Part shown: positions 29,646 through 64,000 of the stretch, one piece after another
How the letters are laid out: every line of letters begins with the position of its first letter
Position numbering within the stretch: the stretch's first letter is position 1
IMG/VR virus record: IMGVR_UViG_3300029267_001213
Location: 22,554 to 86,553 of that record
Direction: 5' to 3' (one strand)
DNA from: a virus
DNA length: 64,000 bases
Translations under genes and position numbers: made by a program
The notes under the pieces: model-generated
Databases searched by the model: none
The model's input: only the letters and a program-made list of their open reading frames with translations
What the model was told of the DNA's origin: nothing

Positions 29646-30812
29646 ATGGACAGAGAGAGAATCGCTTTTAATAATCTGGCGAAGGAACTGAAGACGGCAT
29701 ATCTCGAGCGCGGAGAGCTGGTTGATCAGGTATTGGCATGTCTGGTCAGTGGGAAGCATATCTTCCTGCTGGGCCCTCCCGGTACAGCGAAGTCGAGCCT
29801 TTTGAAAGCGGTATGTAATTCAATGGAGGACTCAAGATATTTTTCGTGGCTACTTACGCGGTACACGACTCCGGAGGAACTGTTCGGACCGCCGTCAATC
29901 GAAGGCCTAAAGAACGACAGATTCGAAAGAGTAACAAAGGGAAAGCTTCCGGAGGCGGATCTGGCATTCATTGATGAGATATGGAAGGCCAGCAGTTCAA
30001 TAATAAATACCTTACTCACTATCATGAACGAGCGCGAGTTTTACAACAATGGTGGTGGTAAGCCGATGCAGTGCCCGTTAAAATTCTTGGCGGCTGCATC
30101 AAACGAAATGCCGGCGGATGATGAGCTTCAAGCGATGTACGACAGATTTCTGGTGAGGACGGTTGTGCAGCCTGTAGTTTCTGAATCAGCGACAAGAGCT
30201 TTGCTTACGCAGGATGATCCTCAGAAAATGATAAAAGAAAAAATCACTGCGAAGATTCTGAAAAAAGCTATGGACACAGCCAGCAAGGTCAATGTGCTGG
30301 ACGATACTGTGGACACGGTGATTAAGATTCGTAAGACTCTCAAGGCGGACGAAGGCATTGTTGCCAGTGACAGAAGATGGAAAGAAATCTTTTCATTCCT
30401 GAAAGCGGTTGCATGGCTGAGCGGAGATGATGAGGTCATCCCGGAACATCTGTCAGCTACTGTGGACTGCTTATGGGAACAGCCGGATCAGCGTAATACA
30501 GTTGCAAGCGTTGTAGGCAAGATTTCTTCTCCGGCAGTTGCTGAAGCGCGTGAGCTTCTGGATGCGGCCAAGGACGAAGCCAAGAAGGCACTTGAGGCTG
30601 CGAACAATTCGGATGCTGGCAATAATCCCGAGATGCTTTCACAGCTCGGAAAGGCGAACAGTCGTCTGGACAAGAGTGTGAAACAGGTTCAGGCGTTGTA
30701 TAACAAGACAAAAAGCAAGGCGTCGATGGAAAAGATAAAAGCCATTTCGGAAGAACTTTCAGGACTCTGCAATGAAGTGAAGGAGACGGCGCGGAAGACT
30801 CTGAAAATATAA
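29646..30812 (+). CDS. MoxR-family AAA+ ATPase, RavA-like
   Basis: Walker A GPPGTAKS, LLTRYTTPEELFGP, Walker B FIDEIWKA, NTLLTIMNER, ASNE.P, DRF and SDRRW motifs. Confidence 0.93.
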   Translation: MDRERIAFNNLAKELKTAYLERGELVDQVLACLVSGKHIFLLGPPGTAKSSLLKAVCNSMEDSRYFSWLLTRYTTPEELFGPPSIEGLKNDRFERVTKGKLPEADLAFIDEIWKASSSIINTLLTIMNEREFYNNGGGKPMQCPLKFLAAASNEMPADDELQAMYDRFLVRTVVQPVVSESATRALLTQDDPQKMIKEKITAKILKKAMDTASKVNVLDDTVDTVIKIRKTLKADEGIVASDRRWKEIFSFLKAVAWLSGDDEVIPEHLSATVDCLWEQPDQRNTVASVVGKISSPAVAEARELLDAAKDEAKKALEAANNSDAGNNPEMLSQLGKANSRLDKSVKQVQALYNKTKSKASMEKIKAISEELSGLCNEVKETARKTLKI

Positions 30813-30822
30813 GGAGGGTGCT

Positions 30823-32451
30823 ATGGTGATCGATAAGAAATTTTTCGATGACAATGAAGCGCCGGCAGTCAAGAAAGAAGTCATCAAGGAAAGTGTGCGC
30901 GGTCCTGATTTGAAGATGGACATGCCGAGAAATAGCTGGGAGAGAGTGCAGTGGGAAAAGTTCCTGAATGATACGGAAGGCAATGAAGTACCGGATGGAC
31001 TGGATCCACGAGGGATGAACAAAGAAAAAAACGAACAGATGGTCAGTCCTACGTGGCCGGGCTTTTCCCGGGAATTGTTTTCCCGGCTGTTGAATGCAGA
31101 TCAGGTTGAATGGAAAAAAGAACCAAGTCCAGAACATGCATGGGCCGATCTTGCACATAAGTCAGCGGACGAAGTGCGGGAATGGGATAATCTTCAGCGG
31201 CGATGCTACGATGATGAGACGTGGTCGGCTATGGCGGCATTGAGCATTGCAAGTTCTGTGAAGGAAGTGGTTATCGGCATTGCGACTACTGAAGATTTAC
31301 AACAGGAACGAGAACAGGCTGCAGGACTTCAGGCTCTTGCTCAGTGGATGCAGAATCAGGCAGACAAAGAACAGGATCCTGCGAGACAGCAACAGCAACA
31401 GGAGAAGGCGGACAATCTCAACCAGCAAGTTGAAGACCTTATGAATCAGATTCAGCAAAAGGAACGACAGGCACAACAGCAGGCGAGTCAGGTAGATCCT
31501 TCTACGATGAGACAGGCGGTGCGTGCGGGTATTAATCAAGCACAGAATCGAATTGAAGAAACTGAGCGAGCGATGTCCATGCTTGGGGCAGGTAAGGATC
31601 CGGGCAAGCTTCAGCGTTCTGGCGGTTCGCAATTGAAGACAGCTCTTGCCAAGAAAATCATGGAGAGCGAAAAGCTTAGACAGATAGCGAAACAGGCTGG
31701 ACGACTTAGAACCACTGCATTGAGAAAGGCCAGAACAAAATGCAAGACCGGCCGGTCTGAATATTACGGCGTGGAGCTTGGTGATGACATCGGACGGATG
31801 TTGCCGAGTGAATTGATCAAGCTTGTTGATCCGGCGCTGGAGAGTCTTTTTTATCGGGGACTTCATGAAAAGTCTTTGTCTCAGTATCGAGTGCGGTCAA
31901 GGGAGCGTGAGAATCGCGGACCGATAGTTGTGGCGATTGATACATCCGGATCCATGTACGGAGATAAGGAAGTGTGGTCGAAGGCGGTTGCCTTGGCATT
32001 GATTTCCGTAGCGATGGAACAGAAGCGACCGTGGGGTGTAATGTTGTGGGATACTTCACTTCAGGACACGGTTTTATCTGCAGACGGAATGGCACGGCCT
32101 GAACAAATGATGGAATGGCTTGAGGCGTTTTCAGGAGGCGGTACACATATGGATGTACCTTTGAGAGAATCCATGCGGATGATTAATGAATGTAAGGAGC
32201 TGAGAAAGGCGGACGTGATTCTTATCACGGATGGTTGTGCGAACATTTCAAAAAGTGTTCAGGAAAAATATCTGAAAGCTTCCGAAGAAAACGGATGGTC
32301 AACGTTCGGCGTGCAAATCGGTGGCGGATGGGAATCAGGTCTTGAACTGCTGGCAGATATTTGCGGCAAGCAAAATGTACACGAGATAAGCGATATGCTT
32401 TCGCGTGAAGATGAGGACAGAATTCTGGAGCGAATAGTTCCGGGCAATTAA
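30823..32451 (+). CDS. vWA-domain protein, ViaA-like
   Basis: G.DIGRMLPSEL, GPIVVAIDTSGSM.G (MIDAS), GGGT and ADVILITDG motifs. Confidence 0.92.
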   Translation: MVIDKKFFDDNEAPAVKKEVIKESVRGPDLKMDMPRNSWERVQWEKFLNDTEGNEVPDGLDPRGMNKEKNEQMVSPTWPGFSRELFSRLLNADQVEWKKEPSPEHAWADLAHKSADEVREWDNLQRRCYDDETWSAMAALSIASSVKEVVIGIATTEDLQQEREQAAGLQALAQWMQNQADKEQDPARQQQQQEKADNLNQQVEDLMNQIQQKERQAQQQASQVDPSTMRQAVRAGINQAQNRIEETERAMSMLGAGKDPGKLQRSGGSQLKTALAKKIMESEKLRQIAKQAGRLRTTALRKARTKCKTGRSEYYGVELGDDIGRMLPSELIKLVDPALESLFYRGLHEKSLSQYRVRSRERENRGPIVVAIDTSGSMYGDKEVWSKAVALALISVAMEQKRPWGVMLWDTSLQDTVLSADGMARPEQMMEWLEAFSGGGTHMDVPLRESMRMINECKELRKADVILITDGCANISKSVQEKYLKASEENGWSTFGVQIGGGWESGLELLADICGKQNVHEISDMLSREDEDRILERIVPGN

Positions 32452-51264: not shown

Positions 51265-51525
51265 ATGGATACAGGTGAATTAAAAAAGTCAGGCATTACT
51301 TACCAGTTTACAGCACAGAAACCGAAAACAAGACCGGAGAACATTGCTCAGAACATTTGTGATAAAATAAGCGAGATGGGGAGAATGAGTGGAGTCTCAC
51401 TGTCGGAGATTGGTCAAATATCTTTAAGCATTTCATCGTTTGCACAAAAAAGACCGAGACCTCCACAGCTCTGCATAAAGGAAAGGATTATAGATAATGC
51501 CGATAGGAAAGATAAAAGTTATTAA
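51265..51525 (+). CDS. Small protein carrying the shared C-terminal QxxIKERI motif
   Basis: Ends PPQLCIKERIIDNADRKDKSY. First gene after the portal. Confidence 0.65.
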   Translation: MDTGELKKSGITYQFTAQKPKTRPENIAQNICDKISEMGRMSGVSLSEIGQISLSISSFAQKRPRPPQLCIKERIIDNADRKDKSY

Positions 51526-54552: not shown

Positions 54553-54688
54553 CCGTGCATTAAGACAGTCATGCAATTGCATAAACTAATCCGGAACAGC
54601 TATTCATTCCGACAGGCTGAAGTCTCACGAGTAGGTCGGCAGATATTCTGGTTGTATGTAAAACACATTAAAGAAATATGGAGGCGAT

Positions 54689-54922
54689 GTGCGAGTTACA
54701 AAATACAAAAAAGGCGAAAAGACAGGAATGCCGGTATCACTGTTCGGCGGTAAGTCAGGCTGGATAAAAGCCGAGATGCCAATGGACGGTATACTGATTC
54801 AGCTAAATGCTTTGGAAAAGTCATCTGGCGGGTGCTTTATATCGGATGCACAGTTGGCCGAGCTTGGATATTATACTCAGGACGAAAACAGAAAGGAGAA
54901 TGAATGCAAAAAGGAATCTTAG
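54689..54922 (+). CDS. Hypothetical protein
   Basis: GGAGG RBS with GTG start. Confidence 0.45.
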   Translation: MRVTKYKKGEKTGMPVSLFGGKSGWIKAEMPMDGILIQLNALEKSSGGCFISDAQLAELGYYTQDENRKENECKKES

Positions 54923-55782
54923 GAATAGTGTTTTTCCTGTCCGGATGTTTTTCCATTCCGGGATATGAGAGTGTAAGTCAGGACGAGGACTGTACCTGTC
55001 CGGACGAGGAGTGTCCTGATACAGCATCAGGCAATGACGATGAGATAAGCAATAGAGATGCCGGGGTGTATGATTCTGGAAACGATGAGTCACAGGACAT
55101 TCCTGATAAACCAGATTTGGAATTTGTGACGGTGCCGGGCAATGCCTTTTACATCGGCAATATAAATGAACAGGGGCCTTGGTATCAGGTCGCAGTAAAA
55201 ACATTTTGGATAATGAAGCATGAGGTTACTGTAGCCGAGTACGGAAAGTGTGTACTGAGCGGGGCATGTACCCGGCCGGTTGATGAGTGTGATTGCATGT
55301 GGTCCGACATAGGCAACGATTATCCGGTGAGCTGTGTAAGTTGGAAACAGGCACAGGAATTTTGCAGCTGGGCGTGTGACTTCTGCAGATTGCCAAGTGA
55401 ATCAGAATGGGAATTTGCGGCGCGAAATGCAGGACAGGGCATACCGTATCCATGGGGGATAGATGCGCCAGATTGTGAGCGTGTAGCGAAAAGCGGATGC
55501 GGTCGCGGAATTGCGACTGTCTGCAGTAAGCCAGACGGCAATACCGAGCAAGGTGCGTGCGATATGCTTGGTAATTTATCCGAGTGGGTTGAGGATGACT
55601 GGCATGATAATTATTCTGGCATACCTGATAACGGCACGGCATGGATTGATATGGACAATTATTACAAGGTGATCCGTGGTGCAAGTTTTATGGACAACGA
55701 GAATGCATTGAGAACGACTTATCGAGAAAAACGAATTCAATATCATAGGGCACCATGGACAGGCTTTAGATGTGCGTATTAG
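54904..55782 (+). CDS. FGE-sulfatase (SUMF1/EgtB/PvdO, C-type lectin fold) lipoprotein
   Basis: Lipobox LSGC. F.IMKHEVTVAEY, YPV.CVSW.QA..FC, RLPSESEWEFAAR, YPWG, DMLGN..EWV.D, VIRG.SF and GFRC motifs. Confidence 0.9.
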   Translation: MQKGILGIVFFLSGCFSIPGYESVSQDEDCTCPDEECPDTASGNDDEISNRDAGVYDSGNDESQDIPDKPDLEFVTVPGNAFYIGNINEQGPWYQVAVKTFWIMKHEVTVAEYGKCVLSGACTRPVDECDCMWSDIGNDYPVSCVSWKQAQEFCSWACDFCRLPSESEWEFAARNAGQGIPYPWGIDAPDCERVAKSGCGRGIATVCSKPDGNTEQGACDMLGNLSEWVEDDWHDNYSGIPDNGTAWIDMDNYYKVIRGASFMDNENALRTTYREKRIQYHRAPWTGFRCAY

Positions 55783-55794
55783 ATTACAAAAGTC

Positions 55795-55824
55795 TTGCAA
55801 AGGAAATAAATAATCCTATATATT
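55795..55824 (+). promoter_or_regulatory. Sigma70-type promoter candidate
   Basis: TTGCAA-N18-TATATT in an intergenic AT-rich gap. Confidence 0.4.
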
Positions 55825-55866
55825 GCAATCAATGAAACCATAACAACGAAGGAGGGTAATAACCAC

Positions 55867-56466
55867 ATGATGAGTGAAGTAGTCAGAGACATAGTTACAC
55901 AGCGAGATGAGCGTGAGGACTGGATTCATGAGCGCAAGCTTCGAGCTGCCGTAAAAAGAGAACTGAACATTATCAGGAGAGCTGAATATCTCAGGCGCAA
56001 GAAGGAGGCGTCTGAATATCTCAGGAAAAATTTTATTCAGATGATGTACTGGCATATGGGATGCAGGAATCATCCGGAAGGACAGGAGCCAAAGACACTG
56101 GAAGAACGTTTCGGCGAATACACTGTGGCGATGGGTTATCGCAAAAGCGGGGTCCGTTCTAATGACGGAAAAAGAATGCTGGTCAGCGTATGTTTCGCAA
56201 TCAGGACGAAAGGCGATTTCTTTTCCCGGCCACAGGCAAGAATGTATATTGCTGACAGATTCAGGAACGAGGATAGAACATGGAATTTTAATGTTTGGGT
56301 TCCGGTGCAAATTATTCAGAATGCTGCTTTCGAAGACGAGGAAAAATATATTAAGGCTTATTTTCTGAACACGGTAGTCAGACAGCCGATAGTATGGACC
56401 AAGCTATCACGCCAGTTCAGAAAATTTATCAGGGATATATACTTAACAGAAGGAAACGTTACTTGA
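55867..56466 (+). CDS. Hypothetical protein
   Basis: GGAGGGT RBS. D.FSR..AR motif. Confidence 0.6.
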   Translation: MMSEVVRDIVTQRDEREDWIHERKLRAAVKRELNIIRRAEYLRRKKEASEYLRKNFIQMMYWHMGCRNHPEGQEPKTLEERFGEYTVAMGYRKSGVRSNDGKRMLVSVCFAIRTKGDFFSRPQARMYIADRFRNEDRTWNFNVWVPVQIIQNAAFEDEEKYIKAYFLNTVVRQPIVWTKLSRQFRKFIRDIYLTEGNVT

Positions 56467-56729
56467 TGCCATTAACGGAAATGGTATGGTGGATGGGCAT
56501 TCTGATTTATCTGGTTACAATTATTTCTGTAGCTGTTGTTATTCGGTCCATTAAGATTCGAGCCGAGCTGGAAGCGGCGGAACGAAATATCAGTAAGATG
56601 ACTGAGTTTGTGGAGCAACAGACGCAGTTCGTAAAATCTATGACTGAGCATATGAATGTTCGGATTAAATATATCCAGAGCAGACTGGATGCCGAAGGCA
56701 AAGACATAGACATTCCGGATATACACTGA
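56466..56729 (+). CDS. Small membrane-anchored coiled-coil protein
   Basis: TGATG coupling, N-terminal transmembrane segment. Confidence 0.55.
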   Translation: MPLTEMVWWMGILIYLVTIISVAVVIRSIKIRAELEAAERNISKMTEFVEQQTQFVKSMTEHMNVRIKYIQSRLDAEGKDIDIPDIH

Positions 56730-56732
56730 CAG

Positions 56733-57230
56733 ATGGAATGGATTAATGCAGCTTATGAACGGGGCGAAATAAGCGTGGATATTTATTCCGGGCAATGGCT
56801 TGATGAGTATCAGATTGTAACTACAGAACCACTTTGTACTAGAAAAATAGAATCATATCCTTCAAGAGTAAAGGTGCCTTATTACTTTGTAGATTTGGAA
56901 GATATAATTCGAGCGCATAAGAGAAGGAATGTTCCAGTACTGGTTTACAGTTTTAAGACGGATGCAGTACAGATTACGGATGGATTTAGAAAACATGTCT
57001 TTTCTATTGCTCGGGATGCGATGTCGCAAGCCATGAGAGATTATTTGGCTTCAGGTGGTTTGGCTTCTATGGATAGATATATTCTGAATAATATGGGCAT
57101 TAAATATGAAGTGGATGGTTCAGCAACAATGATCCGATTGCCAGCCAGACAATTAATTGTGAGAGAAAAAATAAAGGAGGAATCTGTATGGGAGAAGGGC
57201 AAGCGATTAATAATCCAGAAAACAAAATAA
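56733..57230 (+). CDS. Hypothetical protein carrying the shared QxxVREKI motif near its C-terminus
   Basis: ...PARQLIVREKIKEE... Confidence 0.6.
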   Translation: MEWINAAYERGEISVDIYSGQWLDEYQIVTTEPLCTRKIESYPSRVKVPYYFVDLEDIIRAHKRRNVPVLVYSFKTDAVQITDGFRKHVFSIARDAMSQAMRDYLASGGLASMDRYILNNMGIKYEVDGSATMIRLPARQLIVREKIKEESVWEKGKRLIIQKTK

Positions 57231-57619
57231 AATTGGTGCGGGCTATTATCAAGCGACAGCTTTCGTATATGCAGGACACCTTGCGGCTGGATTTCGACAT
57301 ACTAGGCATGGTGGACGGAAGACATGTTATCAGCACAAAAGACCTTGATTGGAACGGCTCTTGGGAATTGCTGAAGATGTGGAATATGGCTGTCGGTCGT
57401 GCATCGGCGGTAGAAATGTCAGGCGTAAAAATACAAAAGGACGAAGAGGGCAAGGTTGGATGCGAGTTCGAGTTGCGGTGCAGCGAAAACGTATTCGGCA
57501 GCGTTGGAAATTTTGACAGACAATTATTCAGCGCGAGAAATGAGGACGCTAGAATACTGACCAGCTGGGTGACAGACGAAACGCACGAGAAAGGTTTATG
57601 GGATTTCATTATATCTTAG
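57188..57619 (+). CDS. Hypothetical protein
   Basis: AAGGAGG RBS. Confidence 0.55.
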   Translation: MGEGQAINNPENKIKLVRAIIKRQLSYMQDTLRLDFDILGMVDGRHVISTKDLDWNGSWELLKMWNMAVGRASAVEMSGVKIQKDEEGKVGCEFELRCSENVFGSVGNFDRQLFSARNEDARILTSWVTDETHEKGLWDFIIS

Positions 57620-57909
57620 ACGGCAAAAAAGCTGTCGAATGTAACGATATGCGCAAGTGGGCAGAATGGATGTAGGAAGTCGACAGGCGCGTGGCGTATG
57701 ATGAGCTTAATGATGTGCAAGTCAGCACTGTTTTCCTCGGCGTGTCTATTGCTTTATTCGAGACCATGGTATTTGGCAATGGAAGTTATGAGCTGGATAA
57801 TTACTCACGAAGATATGCAACATGGAACGAAGCTGAAGTCGGTCATAAGGAAGTGGTGGACATGGTTAAGGAGACCATGTTAGAACAGGCATTGATAAAA
57901 GGATTATGA
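57598..57909 (+). pseudogene. Phage hypothetical gene interrupted by an in-frame TAG at 57673-57675
   Basis: MGFHYILDGKKAVECNDMRKWAEWM*EVDRRVAYDELNDVQVSTVFLG...LFETMVFG reads as one continuous frame across the stop. Confidence 0.7.
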
Positions 57910-57981
57910 TGCGAGGTGGAGAAGTGGTATCTCGGCAGGGTCATATCCTGCAGAACCCGGGTTCGAGTCCCGGCCTCGCTA
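57910..57981 (+). tRNA. tRNA with CAU anticodon, initiator-Met-like
   Basis: Acceptor (T)GCGAGG/CCTCGC(T) with 1:72 mismatch, D-arm GAGA/TCTC, anticodon stem GCAGG/CCTGC with loop GTCATAT, T-arm CCGGG-TTCGAGT-CCCGG. No encoded CCA. Confidence 0.88.
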
Positions 57982-57995
57982 CTGAGAAAGTGAAT

Positions 57996-58300
57996 GGGCC
58001 TAAAAATGGATTCGACGTATGCAGCGAAACATGAGAGGCGTGTCGTGGGTGCTTGTTACCACGTAAACACAACGAGCAATGAGAACTGCGAACCAGCAGA
58101 AAGCTCTGGCTGCATAGACAGTCAGTGTCTTTTCGAGAAGTCCGGTCTGTACTTTCGAAAAAGGCATCATATCACAGGCCACAGCATTCTCCTTGAAAAC
58201 GTCTGGCTGACGGCCCTGTTTATCGGGACAAAGATAGACTACACACGTAGAATTTTATGCGGAAGGTATGCGGACGCCGGTTCGATTCCGGCTAGGTCCA
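57996..58300 (+). ncRNA. ssrA: tmRNA, tag (A)ANQQKALAA
   Basis: 5' GGGCCTA...GGATTCGAC and 3' GGAC-GCCGG-TTCGATT-CCGGC-TAGGTCC-A give an acceptor stem with G3.U70. Tag frame 58088-58117: GCG AAC CAG CAG AAA GCT CTG GCT GCA TAG. Confidence 0.93.
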
Positions 58301-58363
58301 CTGAGTTGGCGATTGTTTAAGGCTTACGGCGAGTAAAATTGCTTTAAGCCACTAAAGAATCAG

Positions 58364-58624
58364 ATGGTATATATTACGTCAAAGCGTCCTGTTGTATCAA
58401 ATCCATTACAGCGATTTTATTGTCAGCATTGTGAATATGTACAATACAGACCGGGGCACTGCCTTAACTGCGGTAATCCTGTCAGGCCGATTAAAAATTT
58501 GATTCATAAGGACCAGCTACGGGACAAGCTCTGGCAGTCTTGGGATCAAGAAAATAATTTGGTCTGGATTGTGGCAATTATAATTTGCGGAATAATATTA
58601 GCGGTTGGAACATTCCTGTTTTGA
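58364..58624 (+). CDS. Zinc-ribbon protein with C-terminal membrane anchor
   Basis: CQHC...CLNC and a hydrophobic C-terminus. Confidence 0.6.
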   Translation: MVYITSKRPVVSNPLQRFYCQHCEYVQYRPGHCLNCGNPVRPIKNLIHKDQLRDKLWQSWDQENNLVWIVAIIICGIILAVGTFLF

Positions 58625-58626
58625 TA

Positions 58627-58655
58627 TTGACCAAGCAAACTAAATCCTTTATAAA
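58627..58655 (+). promoter_or_regulatory. Sigma70-type promoter heading the tagged-protein array
   Basis: TTGACC-N17-TATAAA. Confidence 0.55.
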
Positions 58656-58700
58656 ACATTATTATATTGTAACCAGAACCAGAACAAGCAAGGAGAAGAC

Positions 58701-59183
58701 ATGCCGAAAGAATTAATCATTGACGAAACAGACATTAAAGACCTGAAGATGAGCGAGTACGAGATCGCTGTCGGATGGGCTGGCCGTAAGGCAGACGAGC
58801 AGCTGGAGATGCGAAAGGTCACTGGTTTTATGGTGTCGGAACATCTTGCAGTGAGAGACATGGAGAATGGCAATGGGTGGGCCATTGATCATCTTCCTAC
58901 CGGAAGACGATTGAATCATTGGCCATTGCTTACTTTCCAGACCGTGGTGTTGTATGCAAAAGCCATTCATAAATATTTGCATGATCCGGGAACTAAAAAC
59001 GCGGAGATTGTTTACACCGAGGATGAGCAACTTAGGATGCAGCTTTACATGAAATACCTGATAGTGAATCCTGAAAGTGAGACGACGTGGGACGAATTCA
59101 AGGAACGGCCTTTGCCTGAAGGTGTGACCAGAATATCTTTACATGAATTAAATGAAACAGAAACCAAAGTTACCAGCGATTAG
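58701..59183 (+). CDS. Hypothetical protein, W..DHLPTGR family
   Basis: AAGGAG RBS. Motif shared with 52340-52720. Confidence 0.65.
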   Translation: MPKELIIDETDIKDLKMSEYEIAVGWAGRKADEQLEMRKVTGFMVSEHLAVRDMENGNGWAIDHLPTGRRLNHWPLLTFQTVVLYAKAIHKYLHDPGTKNAEIVYTEDEQLRMQLYMKYLIVNPESETTWDEFKERPLPEGVTRISLHELNETETKVTSD

Positions 59184-59439
59184 TTTTATGGAAGACCTTG
59201 GGATAATAAAAGTACTGTTGGCAAGATTGTCACAGCATAGGACTACCAGAATGGTTGTGACTTGCCATTATTGCGGAAATACTTTTGCGATGTATTTCCC
59301 AGCTCGTGAATATAAAAAAGACGTGAGACATTATTGGTGCCCGAGTTGTCTTTCTCATCCGGTATGCAGAGAAGGGTCAAGGCTATATCGGGTTGCGAAG
59401 GCAGAACAAGTTTGCATGAGCGAGCGAGTTGTTGACTGA
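59152..59439 (+). CDS. Array member 1, zinc ribbon plus C-terminal tag
   Basis: CHYC..CPSC, ends EQVCMSERVVD. Confidence 0.7.
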   Translation: MKQKPKLPAISFMEDLGIIKVLLARLSQHRTTRMVVTCHYCGNTFAMYFPAREYKKDVRHYWCPSCLSHPVCREGSRLYRVAKAEQVCMSERVVD

Positions 59440-59450
59440 GGAGTGAGCCG

Positions 59451-59759
59451 GTGTTTAGACCGTGGCAAGAAAAGTGGTTAGTGCCTATTTACAAGTTCAA
59501 CAGGCCGATTCAAATGAGCAACGGTCATGGAAACAGATACTGTTGCATAAGATGCGGTTGTGACTTGTTCTGGATGATGGAAATAAACGCAGAGGTCAAT
59601 ACTGGTTATCTTTCAAAGTCATATGTGACCGTTACAACGAAGTGTTATCAATGCGGTCGGCAGATGGGTTTTTTGTTATATAACTATCATGATAAAAATT
59701 CGCAGTTGTTGCCAATTTTTCAAGAACAGAAAATGATACGTGAGCGAATCAATGGATGA
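59451..59759 (+). CDS. Array member 2, zinc ribbon plus tag
   Basis: CIRC..CYQC, ends EQKMIRERING. Confidence 0.7.
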   Translation: MFRPWQEKWLVPIYKFNRPIQMSNGHGNRYCCIRCGCDLFWMMEINAEVNTGYLSKSYVTVTTKCYQCGRQMGFLLYNYHDKNSQLLPIFQEQKMIRERING

Positions 59760-60039
59760 GTTTAGTGTTGGTGACATAGTGGGTGTTCTGAACGATGCAG
59801 CAGAATTTGTTGCGGATTCCTTGCTCGACATGGCCGAGGTGCTTCCGATAATTTTCAGATCATCATTAGGATCTATTGAGGAGGGAATTAAAGATACTTT
59901 GTTTCGTGAAGACAGTGAGCGAATTGAAGTATTAATTACACTGTTCGGCGGTGAAGAAAAATTTATCAAGTTGGTTTGTGCTATGAAGCTTGGACATTTA
60001 CTTCAGCCGGTAATCAAGGAAAGGATCATTGATGAGTGA
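59752..60039 (+). CDS. Array member 3, helical plus tag
   Basis: Ends LQPVIKERIIDE. Confidence 0.7.
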   Translation: MDEFSVGDIVGVLNDAAEFVADSLLDMAEVLPIIFRSSLGSIEEGIKDTLFREDSERIEVLITLFGGEEKFIKLVCAMKLGHLLQPVIKERIIDE

Positions 60040-60325
60040 CTGGCGGGATAGGTGGAAGGACGTGAAGGCCAGACAGAGAATTAAGGTAACCGAGCGCGGT
60101 AGTTACAAAGACGAAAGTGCTTTTCGATGCTCATGCGGTCATGATATTTTCTTCGTGCATATTGATTGGAAAAAGGCCAAAGAATTTTTTTCACGGAATG
60201 CATTGATAGTGAGTTGTATGCGGTGCCATATGAGAATCAGAATATCGCTGGATATGACTGGTCCTGTTTTGATACCTTTTGCAGCCAGTCAGCAAATAAT
60301 TAAGGAGAGAGTCATTGGTGATTAA
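60032..60325 (+). CDS. Array member 4, zinc ribbon plus tag
   Basis: CSC..CMRC, ends SQQIIKERVIGD. Confidence 0.7.
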   Translation: MSDWRDRWKDVKARQRIKVTERGSYKDESAFRCSCGHDIFFVHIDWKKAKEFFSRNALIVSCMRCHMRIRISLDMTGPVLIPFAASQQIIKERVIGD

Positions 60326-60578
60326 GTCTAATCTGATTTATGATTTGAACAAAAGCACCAGACGTTTTCGTTGTAAGCAATGCGGCAATGATTTATTCAA
60401 TGAGCATATGCCTTATCAGGGCGAGCATCGAGTTGAGACATTTTATGTGTGTACTGTTTGCCAAGAAAAATATTCAGTAGAGACATTGGCTCGGCTGAAC
60501 GTACATCATAAGCGCATTGCACAAAAGGAACAGCCTGTAGTGAGAGAAAAAATAAGGAGCAAGGCGCGACATGGCTGA
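60318..60578 (+). CDS. Array member 5, zinc ribbon plus tag
   Basis: CKQC..CTVC, ends EQPVVREKIRSKARHG. Confidence 0.7.
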   Translation: MIKSNLIYDLNKSTRRFRCKQCGNDLFNEHMPYQGEHRVETFYVCTVCQEKYSVETLARLNVHHKRIAQKEQPVVREKIRSKARHG

Positions 60579-60789
60579 AAAAGCAAGAAAGATATTCGAC
60601 ATGAGTAGGGTGACGCAATCGACTAGATTTTTAATGAGTGCTGGCATAAGTATGAATGAAGCGATTGATGCAGTGGAAAAATTTCGAGCAACAATTACTG
60701 AAAGAACGGGTGTCTCTGAAAGGTTTATGGAATTGCGGCGAGAGCTGTTTATGGAGCAGTTGGTTATCAAGGAGCGCATCATTGAGTAA
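60571..60789 (+). CDS. Array member 6, helical plus tag
   Basis: Ends EQLVIKERIIE. Confidence 0.7.
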   Translation: MAEKARKIFDMSRVTQSTRFLMSAGISMNEAIDAVEKFRATITERTGVSERFMELRRELFMEQLVIKERIIE

Positions 60790-61018
60790 ATACATAAATG
60801 ATTATTCATTGGTTCGAGTCGATTTCAGTCATAGTGCTGCGTTTACTGATACCGCAAGCACTGAAAGTTATACAAGGTCGATGGTATGGTGTCCGGACTG
60901 CGGATCGAGAATGCTTAGAAGTCATAGTACAGGCGCATTATATTGTTTCGGTTGCTTCAATATTTTTTTTATGCAGATTTTAATTAAGGAGCGTATCGTT
61001 GACGATACCACGGCGTAG
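60782..61018 (+). CDS. Array member 7, zinc ribbon plus tag
   Basis: TTG start after AAGGAG. CPDC..CFGC, ends MQILIKERIVDDTTA. Confidence 0.7.
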   Translation: MSKYINDYSLVRVDFSHSAAFTDTASTESYTRSMVWCPDCGSRMLRSHSTGALYCFGCFNIFFMQILIKERIVDDTTA

Positions 61019-61214
61019 AAAACTTTTAGCAAGACGTGGGAAACTGACGTGTTATCAATGCGGCAGTACAGACGTTCATTCTATCAATACAGGAGAACTG
61101 GTATGTGATTTTTGCGGTACTCATTATACTAATGAATTCCCGGATGGTGTTCCGGGAACGACTAAGCCCCCTGTGCGATTTCAAGCCATGGTTAAGGAAC
61201 GGGTGATTGAATGA
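60999..61214 (+). CDS. Array member 8, zinc ribbon plus tag
   Basis: CYQC..CDFC, ends FQAMVKERVIE. Confidence 0.7.
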   Translation: MTIPRRRKLLARRGKLTCYQCGSTDVHSINTGELVCDFCGTHYTNEFPDGVPGTTKPPVRFQAMVKERVIE

Positions 61215-61510
61215 ATTGGGAAGAGGCTCATATTTTAGACACGCAATTTAGCAATGTTGTTTGCAGTGCTTGCAAGAAAAATAGACAGATAGTTCGTATG
61301 CATTCTAAAGTTGAATGTAATTTTAAGAATGGAGGGTATGTGCTAGTTATGTGCTGTCCATTATGCGGTCGGACTGTAATTATGGACAGAGAAGAAAATT
61401 TGCCAGACGCAAAACGGCTTAGAAATCGGGTTGGCGGAATACTAATAAATGATACAGCATATGTTGGAACACTACCTCGGCAGTTTTGTATAAAGGAAAG
61501 AATTCTGTAA
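61211..61510 (+). CDS. Array member 9, zinc ribbon plus tag
   Basis: CSAC..CPLC, ends RQFCIKERIL. Confidence 0.7.
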   Translation: MNWEEAHILDTQFSNVVCSACKKNRQIVRMHSKVECNFKNGGYVLVMCCPLCGRTVIMDREENLPDAKRLRNRVGGILINDTAYVGTLPRQFCIKERIL

Positions 61511-61794
61511 TGGCCAAACAAAAGAGAGGCATGCGATTTGACAGGCCAAACAGAGAGGCTATGGCGGCGACGGCAAACTGGATTACTGAGGAAGATAGAT
61601 GGATTTTTCTTTCGCTGGAGTGGGATGAAATAAAGATGCCTTGTCCATTCTGTTTTAATAAGATGTTGCATGATATGATGCAGTATCGAACGGGCTGTAG
61701 ACATTGTGGTTGTTGGTGGAATGATAGCATGTTGAGGACGTTGAATTATCGCGGATTGGAACAGGCGATTATGCGGGAGAAGGTTCATGGATGA
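61510..61794 (+). CDS. Array member 10, zinc ribbon plus tag
   Basis: TAATG coupling. CPFC..CRHC, ends EQAIMREKVHG. Confidence 0.7.
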   Translation: MAKQKRGMRFDRPNREAMAATANWITEEDRWIFLSLEWDEIKMPCPFCFNKMLHDMMQYRTGCRHCGCWWNDSMLRTLNYRGLEQAIMREKVHG

Positions 61795-62035
61795 ATTAAT
61801 TGAGCATGAGATAGATCAATTTGTACTGGATAGCCGCTGTGAATGCGGCGGATGCATAATGAGGTATGGCAATGAAGAAGTGATGTGTAACAAATGCAAA
61901 TCAATATATAGATTATTATTTCACAAAAAGACGGTTAAAGATAAATTTAATCAGCTGGTATTCGAATCTGTAAAGATCATGACTGGCAAAAAGTGTCTAC
62001 CTGAACAGCTGGTAATTAAGGAACGAACATGCTGA
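61787..62035 (+). CDS. Array member 11, zinc ribbon plus tag
   Basis: CEC..CNKC, ends EQLVIKERTC. Confidence 0.7.
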   Translation: MDELIEHEIDQFVLDSRCECGGCIMRYGNEEVMCNKCKSIYRLLFHKKTVKDKFNQLVFESVKIMTGKKCLPEQLVIKERTC

Positions 62036-62232
62036 TAAAAAACATAAGCGGGAATATTATTAAGGTGAAAAACGTAATGGTTCCACCGGACCGGCAACTG
62101 TTCATTACTCCGTCAGAATACAACAAGCTACCAGCTGCAGTAAAAGTACTGTTTATGGTAACCATGACAGATTGCCCGTTTGAAGAACTGGAACAGGCAA
62201 CGATTAGTGAACGGATTAAAGATGATGATTAA
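62029..62232 (+). CDS. Array member 12, small beta protein plus tag
   Basis: Ends EQATISERIKDDD. Confidence 0.65.
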   Translation: MLIKNISGNIIKVKNVMVPPDRQLFITPSEYNKLPAAVKVLFMVTMTDCPFEELEQATISERIKDDD

Positions 62233-62234
62233 AA

Positions 62235-62462
62235 ATGCAGAATGATAAAATTAAATTGAGCACTAGATGTTGGCTTTGCGGAGGCACAGTACCTTTCTGT
62301 CCGGAGAAAGGATGGACGCATTGCAAGGATTGTGGGCGGGAGTATATTATATCGGACAAGACCGGGGTTGCTCCGGTTTATCAGGAGACAATGAGAGAAC
62401 GAATCAAGAGAAAGGAGAAGAAGGATGACGACGATAACACTGGCAAGAAAATTTCGTTTTGA
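62235..62462 (+). CDS. Array member 13, zinc ribbon plus tag
   Basis: CWLC..CKDC, then YQETMRERIKRK... Confidence 0.7.
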   Translation: MQNDKIKLSTRCWLCGGTVPFCPEKGWTHCKDCGREYIISDKTGVAPVYQETMRERIKRKEKKDDDDNTGKKISF

Positions 62463-62853
62463 AGCTGCTCACAGACTGAATAAGCATAAAGGACAGTGCA
62501 AGCATCTGCATGGTCATACATACAAAGGGCATGTGGAGATTGAAGGTCCGGTTGGCGAGGACGGTATGGTTCTCGACTTTCAAAACATGAAAGCTTTGTT
62601 GAATATGTCGATTGGATTGCTGGATCATTCTCTTATGCTGCATGAGAATGATGAGCTGGTAAACGTCATGGCAGACCATGGTCAGCATGTGGTTACTATG
62701 CCTTACGATCCGACGGTTGAAAATCTTTCTAAGCGAATTGGCTTGAGCATTCAGAAATATCTGGATGAAGATGAAACACTGGACGCATGGGTCAAGCGGG
62801 TCGTATTATATGAGACTCCTGAATGCTGGGCCATATGGAGGCCGTTGGAATGA
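62425..62853 (+). CDS. queD: 6-carboxy-5,6,7,8-tetrahydropterin synthase
   Basis: F.FEAAHRL..H.G.C..LHGHTY, GMVLDF, LDH, PTVEN and L.ETP motifs. Confidence 0.93.
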   Translation: MTTITLARKFRFEAAHRLNKHKGQCKHLHGHTYKGHVEIEGPVGEDGMVLDFQNMKALLNMSIGLLDHSLMLHENDELVNVMADHGQHVVTMPYDPTVENLSKRIGLSIQKYLDEDETLDAWVKRVVLYETPECWAIWRPLE

Positions 62854-63272
62854 AAAGCCGTTTCAAAAAGATACTGGACAAGATGCAGAAGGCTGCTGAA
62901 TTATCCAGTGACTTGAACAACAGGGATGAGCGCAGGGCCAGACAGATGTCATCTATACCGGCATCAAATGATAAACAGCGATGGCGTTATCCTGACGGAC
63001 CATGGAAGTATGATCCGACTCCGGTGCCGGGTAAGTTCGGTTGTGAGCGCGGGATGATTCGAAGACATATTAATGAGCGATACATTCTTACTCGGTGCCC
63101 GAGATGTGCAGGTATTCAGTTGGTCGGTGGCATTGAAGTTACGGGTGACAATGACCGGCCGACATTATCCGAGTCAATTACTTGCAGTTGCGAAAGATGC
63201 CGAACAGAATTTATTATCAAAGAGGGCAGGATGTCTGTCTTGGACAAGGGCGAGGACGAAGAATTGCATTGA
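62850..63272 (+). CDS. Hypothetical protein with Cys4 site
   Basis: CPRC...PTLS.SI.C..C...FII.EG. Confidence 0.6.
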   Translation: MKSRFKKILDKMQKAAELSSDLNNRDERRARQMSSIPASNDKQRWRYPDGPWKYDPTPVPGKFGCERGMIRRHINERYILTRCPRCAGIQLVGGIEVTGDNDRPTLSESITCSCERCRTEFIIKEGRMSVLDKGEDEELH

Positions 63273-63281
63273 ATAATTATC

Positions 63282-63310
63282 TTGATTTGGATCAATTAAT
63301 TTCTTAATCT
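63282..63310 (+). promoter_or_regulatory. Sigma70-type promoter candidate
   Basis: TTGATT-N17-TAATCT in an intergenic gap. Confidence 0.4.
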
Positions 63311-63334
63311 ACAGACGCAGAACAAGAGGTAGGC

Positions 63335-63658
63335 ATGTCCAGAAAAAAAATCAAAAAGCGAACGTTTAAGCGTCAATGGAAATGGCGCATTAAAATCCTT
63401 GAGCCAGACGAATACAGTCCACCAGAAAGAAAATTAAATTACGGTGAGAGAGCTGCGGACTTGGCAATCAAGCTTATCCGTGAATATTGCAAAGCGACCA
63501 GAGTGGGTCTTTCGGAGTTGGGCATTAAAGATGATGTGGATGAAGAACAGACGAATAAAGAGCTTTTGGAATTAATGAACAAGGGTGCAATAAAAATTAT
63601 AGTTAATCCTGCAATGGTGGAGGACATAGATAAGATATGGCCACTGGACACAAAATAG
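63335..63658 (+). CDS. Hypothetical protein
   Basis: GAGGT RBS. Confidence 0.55.
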   Translation: MSRKKIKKRTFKRQWKWRIKILEPDEYSPPERKLNYGERAADLAIKLIREYCKATRVGLSELGIKDDVDEEQTNKELLELMNKGAIKIIVNPAMVEDIDKIWPLDTK

Positions 63659-64000
63659 AATGGTGTGATGCAACTTGGAATCCTTTCACCGGTTGTTTGC
63701 ATGGCTGCAAGTATTGTTATGCGAGAAAATTTTCAAGACGACTGGCTGGTATTTCCGGTACGATATATTACGAGCTTAAAAAAATGGGACTGGATCCTTT
63801 TACGCCGGTTGTGGATTTCGATAAATTGAGCAGGATGTGGCAGGTATTAAAGGATGCCAAAAAACCAAAGCGGATATTTCTCGGCTCGATGGCAGATATA
63901 GCGGGAGACTGGCAGTGGCGATTTGCTGTAGATGGAGAAATTACGGAACCGGTATGTGCTTCTCATGATGTGCAGGAAATTATCAAGGGAGTATGCGAAG
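63637..64000 (+). CDS. DUF5131 / phage Gp37Gp68-family radical SAM protein (truncated by window end)
   Basis: Read by hand: MATGHKIEWCDATWNPFTGCLHGCKYCYARK...KPKRIFLGSMAD. Absent from the ORF track because it has no stop in the window. Confidence 0.88.
   Translation, partial: MATGHKIEWCDATWNPFTGCLHGCKYCYARKFSRRLAGISGTIYYELKKMGLDPFTPVVDFDKLSRMWQVLKDAKKPKRIFLGSMADIAGDWQWRFAVDGEITEPVCASHDVQEIIKGVCE

What the first reader, a model, noticed from the sequence alone, without database searches (positions are those of the whole stretch)
59152..62462. Tandem array of 13 unrelated small proteins sharing one C-terminal peptide tag
Seen: 13 consecutive genes carry Q-x-x-[IVM]-[KRS]-E-[RK]-[IVT] at or near the C-terminus: QVCMSERVVD*, QKMIRERING*, QPVIKERIIDE*, QQIIKERVIGD*, QPVVREKIR, QLVIKERIIE*, QILIKERIVD, QAMVKERVIE*, QFCIKERIL*, QAIMREKVHG*, QLVIKERTC*, QATISERIKD and QETMRERIK. 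Q and E are invariant while codons vary (CAG/CAA, GAG/GAA, CGA/AGG/AGA/CGC/CGT/CGG), which points to selection on the peptide. The N-terminal bodies show no evident similarity beyond paired Cys motifs in ten of them, and three have no zinc site. Inference: this is a modular 'variable body + common docking tag' system, in which many small proteins bind one hub. Possible roles are a capsid/portal packaging signal for ejected proteins, an adaptor set recruiting a protease or the phage MoxR-vWA machine to different host targets, or a degron. I know of no described phage family with this tag.
Basis: partly seen in the sequence, partly recalled or inferred. Interest (0 to 1): 0.92.

Follow-up and report, generated by a model that had tools for sequence, protein, structure and literature searches.

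The report
Shared C-terminal tag on phage proteins
An uncultured phage ends sixteen otherwise dissimilar small proteins, thirteen of them in one row, with the same short peptide, which behaves like a common address label whose reader is still unknown.

Summary
All 13 genes at 59.2-62.5 kb end in Q-x-x-[IVM]-[KRS]-E-[RK]-[IVT]. Two more genes (51265-51525, 56733-57230) carry it, and so does one just past the window end, seen only in a sister strain. The called proteome holds 16 matches against 0.05 expected.

The peptide is what is selected. Third codon positions vary freely, and Arg uses both codon families. Tags persist where the next gene has its own ribosome site, and every DNA-level match is in frame.

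Two DNA-level roles sit on top. Lys is always AAG, and AAG-GAR serves as the next gene's Shine-Dalgarno in 7 of 8 such junctions. A sister strain (95.5-96.8% identical) differs by one whole cassette, and the joint lies inside the tag codons.

Ten bodies are two-knuckle zinc ribbons and five are not. The three proteins searched have no relatives outside this phage species.

What reads the tag is untested. The phage's MoxR-vWA pair is a speculative candidate.

Earlier notes of this scan report other phages with different shared C-terminal tags; I did not check them.

The parts
59188..59439 (+). g1, zinc-ribbon cassette; tag QVCMSERV at 59407-59430. The ORF is open from 59152; the start is uncertain (59188 or 59251).
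59451..59759 (+). g2, zinc-ribbon cassette, GTG start after GGAG; tag QKMIRERI at 59727.
59752..60039 (+). g3, cassette without Cys pairs; tag QPVIKERI at 60004. No relatives among 1.84 billion representative proteins apart from two weak long-protein hits (E 1.8e-5 and 4.4e-4).
60032..60325 (+). g4, zinc-ribbon cassette; tag QQIIKERV at 60290. Its AAGGAG lies 10 nt before the next start.
60318..60578 (+). g5, zinc-ribbon cassette; tag QPVVREKI at 60531. It is a recombinant: its body matches the sister strain's g5 and its tail matches the sister strain's extra cassette gX.
60527..60543 (+). Joint of the one-cassette difference from sister strain L022. It lies in the Glu-Gln codons that open the tag; in L022 the two flanking tags share GGAACAGCTT.
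60571..60789 (+). g6, cassette without Cys pairs; tag QLVIKERI at 60757.
60809..61018 (+). g7, zinc-ribbon cassette (TTG start likely); tag QILIKERI at 60974. This frame is the coding one: 8 synonymous and 3 non-synonymous codon changes against L022, versus 3 and 6 in the overlapping ORF 60798-60983.
60999..61214 (+). g8, zinc-ribbon cassette; tag QAMVKERV at 61182.
61211..61510 (+). g9, zinc-ribbon cassette; tag QFCIKERI at 61481. The only relative in 5.8 billion proteins is the 95%-identical sister-strain copy.
61510..61794 (+). g10, zinc-ribbon cassette; tag QAIMREKV at 61762.
61787..62035 (+). g11, zinc-ribbon cassette; tag QLVIKERT at 62006.
62029..62232 (+). g12, cassette without Cys pairs; tag QATISERI at 62194.
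62235..62462 (+). g13, zinc-ribbon cassette; tag QETMRERI at 62382, 18 residues before the stop. The next gene (QueD-like, from 62425) has its own AAGGAGAAGAAGG ribosome site.
51265..51525 (+). gA, dispersed tagged gene directly after the portal gene; tag QLCIKERI at 51466.
56733..57230 (+). gB, dispersed tagged gene of 165 aa without Cys pairs; tag QLIVREKI at 57150. It shares 16 identical nucleotides with the g5 tag.
30222..30245 (+). Internal copy of the motif (QKMIKEKI) at residues 164-171 of the MoxR-type AAA+ ATPase (29733-30812). It may be chance (tag-profile E 0.039).
30823..32451 (+). vWA protein with an intact DxSxS MIDAS site. Speculative candidate reader of the tag.

Best explanation
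The locus is a fast-turning cassette array in an uncultured tailed phage with a circular or circularly permuted map of roughly 88.5 kb. Each cassette is a small orphan protein, and ten of the thirteen are two-knuckle zinc ribbons.

Shown:
- Every cassette, and three genes elsewhere in the genome, carries the peptide (E)Q-x-h-[IVML]-[KRS]-E-[RK]-[IVT] 1-18 residues before its stop.
- The peptide is kept by selection on the protein.
- Where cassettes abut, the same codons also work as DNA. AAG-GAR is the next gene's Shine-Dalgarno, and the following ATT-GAx codons hold its start.
- The tag-coding stretch is the joint at which a cassette was gained or lost between two strains.

Inferred: the peptide is a short linear docking motif. 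One partner, from the phage or the host, can handle the whole changeable set of small proteins through it. The partner is unknown.
For: - Not chance: 16 matches observed against 0.054 expected, with a maximum of 1 in 1000 shuffles.
- Discrete set: a profile of the tag finds the 15 tags at E 1.8e-5 to 1.5e-3, the MoxR site at 0.039, and nothing else in the record.
- Protein-level selection among the paralogous tags: the majority-base frequency at codon positions 1, 2 and 3 of the six constrained codons is 0.82, 0.89 and 0.55. Mean nucleotide identity of the 24-nt tags is 58%. Position 7 is Arg by CGN in 8, Arg by AGR in 4, and Lys in 3.
- All 16 DNA-level matches are in frame, with none antisense or out of frame.
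- Tags persist where they are not the ribosome site. In 5 of 15 (gB, g1, g5, g12, g13) the tag lies 20-26 nt before the next start. Four of these have a separate Shine-Dalgarno visible; g12 has none.
- Against the sister strain the 13 tags (g5 excluded) show 6 synonymous changes and 2 conservative replacements (V>I, M>I). The bodies show 62 synonymous and 66 non-synonymous differences, pN/pS 0.28, so both are real coding sequence.
- The bodies are diverse. Ten of 15 have two Cys pairs at varied spacing, and 5 of 15 have none. The best body-to-body BLASTP E is 1.9e-4, and that match covers only the knuckles.
- Only weak zinc-ribbon matches appear in PHROGs, Pfam and NCBIfam.
Against: - No partner is identified, and no structure or co-fold could be made.
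- Conservation depth is shallow. The only relative holding the array is 95.5-96.8% identical. The tag-versus-body difference in that comparison is not significant (Fisher p 0.27).
- Part of the motif has a DNA-level explanation. Lys is AAG in 8 of 8 window tags against 52% genome-wide (binomial p 0.005). In 7 of these 8 the AAG-GAR lies 5-13 nt before the next start.
- The tag is absent from 80 loci around related portals, which are 32-38% identical. It is also absent from 5 cultured phage genomes and from one-species-each GTDB genomes by pattern scan.
- The three tagged proteins searched (gB, g9, g3) have no relatives elsewhere. The tag cannot therefore be followed through deeper evolution.
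Confidence: 0.5

Rival explanations
1. Diverged paralogue family. One small zinc-ribbon gene was duplicated many times. The C-terminal peptide is simply the best-kept piece of a common fold, for example a helix needed for folding or self-association, and is not a portable tag.
For: - The genes stand in tandem.
- Ten of the 13 array genes are two-knuckle zinc ribbons.
- g7, g8, g10 and g13 share the same 14-residue knuckle spacing and give weak BLASTP hits (E 1.9e-4 to 0.011).
- One knuckle of g2 and one of g8 are 17 of 18 nt identical.
Against: - Five of the 15 window proteins, and gC in the sister strain, have no zinc site.
- Sizes run from 62 to 165 aa, and the distance from the second knuckle to the tag varies widely.
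- Dispersed copies sit beside unrelated genes: the portal, a QueD-like gene, and a gene that I read as ASCH-like without any test.
- No body-wide similarity is detectable.
Confidence: 0.17
2. Junction by-product. The conserved unit is the DNA joint (ribosome site, spacer, start and stop). It is copied whenever cassettes recombine, and the peptide it happens to encode is neutral.
For: - Lys is always AAG (8 of 8 in the window, and also in gC of the sister strain). In 7 of 8 the AAG-GAR lies 5-13 nt before the next start.
- A 29-nt direct-repeat family covers 5 junctions at 66-79% identity.
- One cassette gain or loss between strains is joined inside the tag codons.
- The gB and g5 tags share 16 identical nucleotides.
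Against: - Third codon positions are free (0.55 against 0.82 and 0.89), and Arg switches codon family.
- Gln, Glu and the hydrophobic positions are kept in the 5 tags that lie 20-26 nt from the next start.
- The synonymous rate in tags (0.089) equals that of the bodies (0.094), so the DNA is under no extra constraint.
- Seventy-seven other coupled junctions in the genome lack the motif.
Confidence: 0.1
3. A specific form of the docking reading. The tag is the handle by which the phage's own MoxR AAA+ / vWA pair captures the small proteins. The invariant Glu would serve as the acidic ligand of the vWA metal site (MIDAS).
For: - The phage encodes a bpMoxR-type ATPase (E 2.9e-50), followed by a vWA protein and a DUF6744 protein. 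The vWA protein has DTSGS, an intact DxSxS motif.
- The only non-terminal copy of the motif in the proteome sits in the MoxR protein. It lies in a stretch that 3 phage homologues do not share. Only 0.054 chance hits are expected in the whole proteome.
- In print, MIDAS takes an acidic residue of the target as sixth ligand (PMC9976466, passages).
- In print, vWA domains of MoxR systems capture a peptide, and some bacterial MoxR-vWA systems are linked to small, rapidly diverging proteins with a conserved C-terminal peptide (PMC7159879, passages).
Against: - The MoxR-vWA genes lie 26 kb from the array.
- Three other MoxR-vWA phages (CL131, MTATph1, 0305phi8-36) have neither this tag nor any shared C-terminal motif above shuffled background.
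- The MoxR site scores only 12.3 bits, against 16.7-22.6 for real tags.
- In NorQD the MIDAS site is not what binds the MoxR partner (PMC9976466).
- No co-fold was possible.
Confidence: 0.1
4. Virion loading signal. The tag docks the small proteins inside the procapsid or on the portal, so that they are packaged and ejected. This would work like the T4 capsid targeting sequence or the encapsulin cargo peptides.
For: - gA is the first gene after the portal.
- [IVM]-x-E resembles the T4 prohead protease site L/I-x-E, which I recall and did not find in the passages read.
- T4 internal proteins are a diverse set that share only a targeting peptide (PMC3012670, passages).
Against: - The tag is C-terminal, not N-terminal.
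- No prohead protease was identified among the 10 head-region proteins scanned.
- The two acidic, scaffold-like proteins just upstream of the major capsid gene share a different C-terminal peptide (14 of 21 identical). That peptide is the more obvious capsid-docking candidate.
- The array lies beside tRNA, tmRNA and base-modification genes, not within the head module.
Confidence: 0.08

Closest known systems
Capsid targeting sequence (CTS) of phage T4 internal proteins (IPI, IPII, IPIII, Alt)
   Same: A highly diverse set of small accessory proteins share only a roughly 10-residue address peptide (PMC3012670, passages read). The genes cluster in a variable region.
   Different: - The CTS is N-terminal and is read by the scaffolding core. 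This tag is C-terminal, and its reader is unknown.
- There is no sequence likeness.
- The phage is unrelated to T4; its portal is at most 27% identical to that of any cultured phage.
- Virion presence is untested.
PeSL mobile regulatory cassettes in the hyperplastic regions of T4-type phages (Arbiol et al. 2010, PMC2839356, abstract read)
   Same: A short repeated element between orphan genes serves gene expression. It is also the site where recombination inserts, deletes and swaps genes between closely related phages. Here one such event is joined inside the tag.
   Different: PeSLs are non-coding promoter-plus-terminator units. Here the repeat lies inside coding sequence and supplies a ribosome site, not a promoter. 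It also encodes a peptide that is itself under selection. No terminator-like site lies on the + strand within the array.
Small rapidly diverging proteins with a conserved C-terminal peptide linked to bacterial MoxR-vWA ternary conflict systems (FxSxx-COOH, RxD and acidic types; Kaur, Burroughs, Iyer, Aravind 2020, PMC7159879, passages read)
   Same: Small variable proteins carry a conserved C-terminal peptide in a genome that also encodes a bpMoxR-type ATPase, a vWA protein and an FGE-sulfatase (FGS) domain protein.
   Different: - The motif is different.
- The genes are not neighbours of the MoxR-vWA genes (26 kb apart).
- No metallopeptidase or SPASM enzyme was identified beside them.
- The setting is a phage, not a bacterial defence locus.
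C-terminal hub-binding peptides such as bacterial clamp-binding motifs, the PIP box, and the T4 gp45-binding tails of gp43, gp33 and gp55 (recalled, not read here)
   Same: A short motif near the C-terminus begins with Gln and has an aliphatic residue three positions later. It lets unlike proteins use one hub.
   Different: - The defining hydrophobic or aromatic end of those motifs is replaced here by an invariant Glu and a basic residue.
- Position 2 is Leu in only 4 of 15 tags.
- No clamp gene was found among the proteins I scanned.
Encapsulin cargo-loading peptides (recalled, not read here)
   Same: A short C-terminal peptide shared by unlike cargo proteins docks them to the inside of an HK97-fold shell.
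   Different: There is no sequence likeness and no evidence of packaging. The head module of this phage has its own, different shared C-terminal peptide.

Membership tests
T4-type capsid targeting sequence proteins | The address peptide sits at the N-terminus. | tested here: not met
   The motif lies 1-18 residues before the stop in 15 of 15 tagged window proteins. No shared N-terminal pattern rises above background: the top count is 3 of 144 against a shuffled maximum of 4.
T4-type capsid targeting sequence proteins | The peptide is cleaved by a prohead protease, and the proteins are found in the virion. | not testable with these tools
   No prohead protease was recognised among the 10 head-region proteins scanned. 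Virion content needs mass spectrometry.
PeSL-type mobile regulatory cassettes | The repeated unit is a promoter plus a terminator stem-loop between genes. | tested here: not met
   The repeat is coding. No + strand terminator-like site lies in 59152-62462, and the only + strand one in 50-64 kb is at 58106, inside the tmRNA.
PeSL-type mobile regulatory cassettes | Recombination between the repeats causes gene gain or loss between close relatives. | tested here: met
   There is one event. Sister strain L022 has one cassette more, and the joint is at window 60527-60543, inside the tag codons. Contigs of run X6 leave the window sequence at the same place, and a contig of run X7 ends there.
Bacterial sliding-clamp binding motif (QL[SD]LF / QLxLxL, recalled) | Gln, then Leu at positions 2 and 4, then a hydrophobic residue at position 5 or 6. 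| tested here: not met
   Gln is present in 15 of 15. Position 2 is Leu in 4 of 15. Position 6 is Glu in 15 of 15.
PIP box (Q-x-x-[ILM]-x-x-[FY]-[FY], recalled) | An aromatic pair at positions 7 and 8. | tested here: not met
   Position 7 is Arg or Lys in 15 of 15. Position 8 is Ile, Val or Thr in 15 of 15.
C-terminal degrons read at the free carboxyl end (ssrA-type, recalled) | The motif sits at the extreme C-terminus at a fixed distance from the end. | tested here: not met
   The number of residues after the 8-mer is 1, 1, 2, 2, 2, 2, 2, 3, 3, 4, 6, 7, 11, 18 and 18, and they are unlike one another.
Small variable proteins of MoxR-vWA ternary systems (PMC7159879) | The genes neighbour the MoxR-vWA core and a peptide-processing enzyme. 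| tested here: not met
   MoxR-vWA lies at 29733-32451 and the array at 59152-62462. No peptidase family was found in the proteins scanned. An HExxH-bearing ORF near gC in L022 has no Pfam match.
Small variable proteins of MoxR-vWA ternary systems (PMC7159879) | A conserved C-terminal peptide of the FxSxx, RxD or acidic type. | tested here: not met
   The motif is Q-x-x-h-[KRS]-E-[RK]-h. It shares only the general plan of a variable body with a conserved C-terminal peptide.
Zinc-ribbon small proteins (rubredoxin-like, two CxxC knuckles) | Two Cys pairs 14-30 residues apart. | tested here: met
   Met in 10 of the 15 window proteins and in the extra cassette of L022, and not met in g3, g6, g12, gA and gB. 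Matches to named zinc-ribbon families are weak only; the best is Pfam E 8.6e-5.

The most novel reading that the evidence does not exclude
The tag is the handle of a phage-encoded, swappable adaptor set. The vWA partner of the phage's MoxR AAA+ motor grips the invariant Glu of the tag through its metal site. The ATPase is thereby coupled to whichever zinc-ribbon adaptor is present, and each adaptor aims the machine at a different host target. The tag-coding DNA doubles as the recombination joint that lets the phage population reshuffle the adaptor repertoire. The internal copy of the motif in the MoxR protein would be a built-in competitor or docking site.
Probability: 0.1. Interest if true: 0.85.

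Novelty: new variant of a known kind. Interest (0 to 1): 0.6.

Why it matters
Arrays of small orphan genes are the least understood part of phage genomes. This one has an unusually clean handle. A discrete 8-10-residue peptide is shared by sixteen proteins and can be used directly as bait to find what reads it. That would assign a common pathway to a whole set of unknown proteins at once.

The locus also shows three layers of information in about 30 bases: a selected peptide, the next gene's ribosome site and start, and a recombination joint. It gives one caught-in-the-act example of in-frame cassette gain or loss at that joint. This is a coding counterpart of the non-coding PeSL cassettes of T4-type phages.

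If the earlier notes of this scan about other phages with other shared C-terminal tags hold up (I did not check them), short address tags on accessory proteins may be a general and undescribed way for phages to organise their variable genes.

Tried and rejected
Searches for relatives that found nothing useful:
- blastn of the array against 50,697 phage records: no match.
- IMG/VR scans with the upstream 160-aa protein, the QueD-like protein and the portal: none, or only 33-35% QueD relatives that hold no tag.
- Double-tag DNA pattern in IMG/VR: 0 stretches.
- The same pattern in GTDB genomes: 13 loci. Twelve have one tag-like hit or none; L032 has two, both at poor positions. None is an array.
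- The same pattern in metagenomes: 19 loci, of which 18 are chance (0-2 hits, no C-terminal series) and one, L022, is real.
- gB, g9 and g3 have no relatives beyond their own or the sister-strain copy. The two weak g3 hits, in proteins of 886 and 561 aa, were not followed.
- 80 loci around portals that are 32-38% identical (1.23 Mb): one loose-pattern hit, 28 residues before a stop, and no series.

Attempts to find analogous but different tags in those 80 loci failed. Reduced-alphabet and exact-pattern counting were swamped by spurious ORFs of high-GC DNA. That question stays open.

Other steps that gave nothing:
- The Atlas search of gB and a PDB sequence search gave nothing usable.
- Rfam found only the tRNA and the tmRNA.
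- Promoter scanning gave no basis for calling the array early or late.
- No RNA holder was listed among the sequencing runs.
- The contigs laid are fragmentary. Parts without cover say nothing.

Considered and rejected:
- Clamp-binding motif, PIP box and end-anchored degron (see the membership tests).
- Programmed frameshift or polyprotein: the frames follow no regular order, and every gene has a stop and a start.
- A nascent-peptide effect at termination: the distance from tag to stop is variable.
- The out-of-frame QQLLKERV at 60689 as a relic tag: it matches only the loose pattern, and both nucleotide differences from L022 in that alternative frame change the residue. I read it as chance.

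Supplementary files of the papers were not opened. The source data of PMC7159879 might list C-terminal peptide types that I could not compare.

Full report
WHAT IS THERE

The window is the last 64 kb of an 86,553-nt IMG/VR virus record. All long ORFs lie on the + strand. Between 59152 and 62462 thirteen short genes follow one another, with overlaps of 1-20 nt or gaps of up to 19 nt.

All are on the + strand and in an ORF's frame. Thirteen are the array. Two are dispersed genes: gA (51265-51525), directly after the portal gene, and gB (56733-57230). One is internal, in the gene at 29733-30812.

IS IT MORE THAN CHANCE?

- In my 151 called proteins (27,000 residues) composition predicts 0.054 hits. 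In 1000 within-protein shuffles the mean was 0.052 and the maximum 1. Sixteen are observed.
- A frame-blind degenerate DNA version of the motif finds exactly the same 16 places on either strand. Shuffles gave a mean of 0.50 and a largest value of 3 in 100.
- A profile built from the 15 terminal tags (A2) recovers them at E 1.8e-5 to 1.5e-3 and the internal site at E 0.039. It finds nothing else in the record, so the set is discrete.
- Of 91 gene junctions with a gap of -60 to +15 nt, 14 carry the tag and 77 do not. Ten of those 77 have a Lys-Glu pair in their last 8 residues.
- A crude de novo count of 4-residue patterns in the last 25 residues of 144 roughly called proteins puts Q..I.ER on top, in 7 proteins, against a shuffled maximum of 4.

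PEPTIDE OR DNA?

Among the tags (the 15 of the window plus two from sister strain L022), the majority-base frequency at codon positions 1, 2 and 3 of the six constrained codons is 0.82, 0.89 and 0.55. Mean pairwise identity of the 24-nt stretches is 58%, with a range of 38-83%.

Codon usage in the tags:
- Gln is CAG in 12 and CAA in 3.
- Glu is GAA in 9 and GAG in 6.
- Both are close to genome-wide usage.
- Position 7 is Arg by CGN in 8, Arg by AGR in 4, and Lys in 3.

The one exception is position 5. Where it is Lys, the codon is AAG in 8 of 8, against 52% AAG genome-wide (binomial p 0.005). In 7 of those 8 the AAG-GAR ends 5-13 nt before the next start codon, so it is that gene's Shine-Dalgarno.

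The seven tags with Arg or Ser at position 5 behave differently:
- Five lie 20-26 nt before the next start.
- In four of those five (gB, g1, g5, g13) a separate Shine-Dalgarno is visible.
- In g12 there is none.

The codons after the tag (ATT-GAx and the like) hold the next start codon in the compact junctions.

So Lys-Glu and the residues after the tag are partly dictated by the next gene. Gln, the two aliphatic positions, Glu and the basic residue are kept whether or not the tag is a ribosome site.

THE SISTER STRAIN

A double-tag DNA pattern scanned over metagenome contigs gave 19 loci. Eighteen have 0-2 isolated hits. One, L022 (a 16,374-nt contig), has 15 strict hits in a series.

L022 is 96.8% identical to window 54590-60543 and 95.5% identical to 60527-64000. 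It has about 286 nt more between these two blocks. In L022, g5 ends with its own tag (QLILKERIA) and is followed by one further zinc-ribbon cassette that ends QLVVREKIRSKARHG. In the window, the g5 body runs straight into that second tail.

The joint lies in the Glu-Gln codons that open the tag, where the two L022 tags share GGAACAGCTT. The simplest reading, which is my inference, is an in-frame deletion between two tags in the window's lineage. Contigs of run X6 depart from the window at 60527-60534, and a contig of run X7 ends at 60534.

Over 14 orthologous genes the bodies differ by 62 synonymous and 66 non-synonymous changes (pS 0.094, pN 0.026, ratio 0.28). They are therefore real genes under purifying selection.

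The tags show 6 synonymous and 5 non-synonymous differences. Three of the five are an artefact of pairing the recombinant g5 tail with the wrong tag. The other two are V>I and M>I. The tag-versus-body contrast is not significant on these numbers (Fisher p 0.27). The synonymous rate in the tags equals that of the bodies, so the DNA of the tag is under no extra constraint.

L022 also runs 5.2 kb beyond the window end. In order it shows:
- the rest of the radical-SAM-like gene;
- an untagged zinc-ribbon gene;
- a further tagged gene, gC, ending QMIIKERIRCEL, whose AAGGAG precedes the next gene's start by 8 nt;
- two more ORFs;
- the folE gene with which the window's record begins.

The map is therefore circular or circularly permuted, and only about 2 kb are missing from the record.

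THE BODIES

Ten of the 15 window proteins have two Cys pairs. The spacing is 14 residues in g7, g8, g10 and g13 and 13-30 in the others. g3, g6, g12, gA and gB have none.

With tags removed, the best BLASTP pair is g7 against g8 (E 1.9e-4 over 27 residues across the knuckles). All other pairs are at 0.002 or worse. One knuckle of g2 and one of g8 are 17 of 18 nt identical. Some of the zinc ribbons are therefore probably paralogues or have exchanged pieces.

PHROGs, Pfam and NCBIfam give only weak zinc-ribbon matches, the best being E 1.3e-4, 8.6e-5 and 0.0033. gB, g9 and g3 have no relatives other than their own or the sister-strain copy in 5.8 billion and 1.84 billion proteins. For g7 the tag-bearing frame is the coding one: 8 synonymous and 3 non-synonymous changed codons, against 3 and 6 in the overlapping ORF.

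HOW FAR DOES THE TAG REACH?

- No cultured phage resembles the array.
- The portal is at most 27% identical to cultured phages and at most 38% identical to metagenomic proteins.
- Eighty IMG/VR loci around such portals (1.23 Mb) hold no tag series.
- GTDB genomes hold none.
- Five cultured phage genomes hold no match to the tag profile at E up to 1. The positive control is.

As far as these searches see, the tag is private to one phage species. That species occurs in sediment and seawater metagenomes of several studies.

WHAT MIGHT READ THE TAG?

Of the proteins I scanned with Pfam, the only recognised peptide-binding module is a vWA protein (30823-32451). It follows a bpMoxR-type AAA+ ATPase (29733-30812, E 2.9e-50) and precedes a DUF6744 protein. 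It has an intact DxSxS metal site.

The single internal copy of the motif (QKMIKEKI) lies in that MoxR protein, between the ATPase core and the lid. Three phage homologues do not share that stretch.

Two papers bear on this:
- The MIDAS site takes an acidic residue of its target as sixth metal ligand (PMC9976466, passages).
- vWA domains of MoxR systems are proposed to capture a peptide, and some bacterial MoxR-vWA systems come with small, rapidly diverging proteins whose C-terminal peptide is conserved (PMC7159879, passages).

Several things speak against it:
- The genes are 26 kb apart.
- The MoxR site scores low.
- Three other MoxR-vWA phages have neither this tag nor any shared C-terminal motif above background.
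- In NorQD the MIDAS site does not bind the ATPase.

I rate this reading at about 0.1.

The capsid-signal idea rests only on gA's place after the portal. The two acidic, scaffold-like proteins upstream of the major capsid gene share a different C-terminal peptide (14 of 21 identical, E 2e-4). A degron read at the free end is unlikely, because 1-18 unlike residues follow the motif.

COMPARISON WITH WHAT IS KNOWN

The closest functional analogue is the T4 capsid targeting sequence. It marks a diverse set of internal proteins that share only that peptide (PMC3012670). It is N-terminal, and it is not related in sequence.

The closest genomic analogue is the PeSL cassette of T4-type phages. There, recombination between repeated regulatory units shuffles orphan genes (PMC2839356, abstract). 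Here the repeated unit is coding and is translated.

I found no description of this motif, or of such a coding joint, in the searches. Earlier notes of this scan report other phages with other shared C-terminal tags. I did not test them, and they are not evidence here.

VERDICT

- Selection on the peptide and the modular build are supported.
- The hub is untested.
- This is a new variant of a known kind: a short address peptide on diverse phage accessory proteins. It has an unusual triple use of the same bases.

The conformation of the tag and any co-fold therefore remain to be done.

Noticed in passing
window 57910-57982 and 57996-58303: The phage carries a tRNA-Met and a complete tmRNA (Rfam 136 bits; tag peptide ANQQKALAA), about 0.85 kb upstream of the array.
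   Followed up: partly
L004:7944-8528 and L004:9041-10999 (record coordinates, upstream of the major capsid gene L004:11057-11983): Two acidic, scaffold-like proteins of 195 and 653 aa share a second, different C-terminal peptide (D.A.DG.YDLSA.VK..K.AG; 14 of 21 identical, E 2e-4). It is a likely capsid-docking tail.
   Followed up: partly
window 30222-30245: This is the only non-terminal copy of the tag motif in the proteome. It lies in the MoxR-type ATPase, in a linker that three phage homologues do not share. It may be chance or mimicry.
   Followed up: partly
window 54904-55782: A 292-aa protein has an FGE-sulfatase (FGS) domain (E 7.3e-40). PMC7159879 lists this domain type among the effectors of MoxR-vWA systems.
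   Followed up: no
L022 minus strand, about 3180-4874 (beyond the window end): The sister strain closes the map. After the window end come an untagged zinc-ribbon gene, tagged gC, a gene starting MRALTLWPEW, and a 226-aa ORF with an HExxH string that runs across the ends of the record. None has a Pfam match.
   Followed up: partly
window 61079-61140: One contig of run X6 (depth 3.8) skips 60 nt in frame inside g8. That would remove the second zinc knuckle. It is a single low-depth contig.
   Followed up: no
window 60689-60712: A tag-like QQLLKERV stands in the wrong frame inside g6. It matches only the loose pattern, and both nucleotide differences from L022 in that alternative frame change the residue. 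I read it as chance.
   Followed up: yes
window 57886-57909: The ORF ending just before the tRNA closes with EQALIKGL, a degenerate form of the tag in which Gly-Leu replaces Glu-Arg.
   Followed up: no
window 60010-60258: In runs X2 and X3 a second allele of the g4 body (13 differences in 249 nt) is present at about 60% of the depth, so strains coexist in the same samples.
   Followed up: no
window 62425-64000 and L004:252-5652: A QueD-like gene directly follows the array, and a radical-SAM-like gene lies about 0.8 kb further on.
   Followed up: partly
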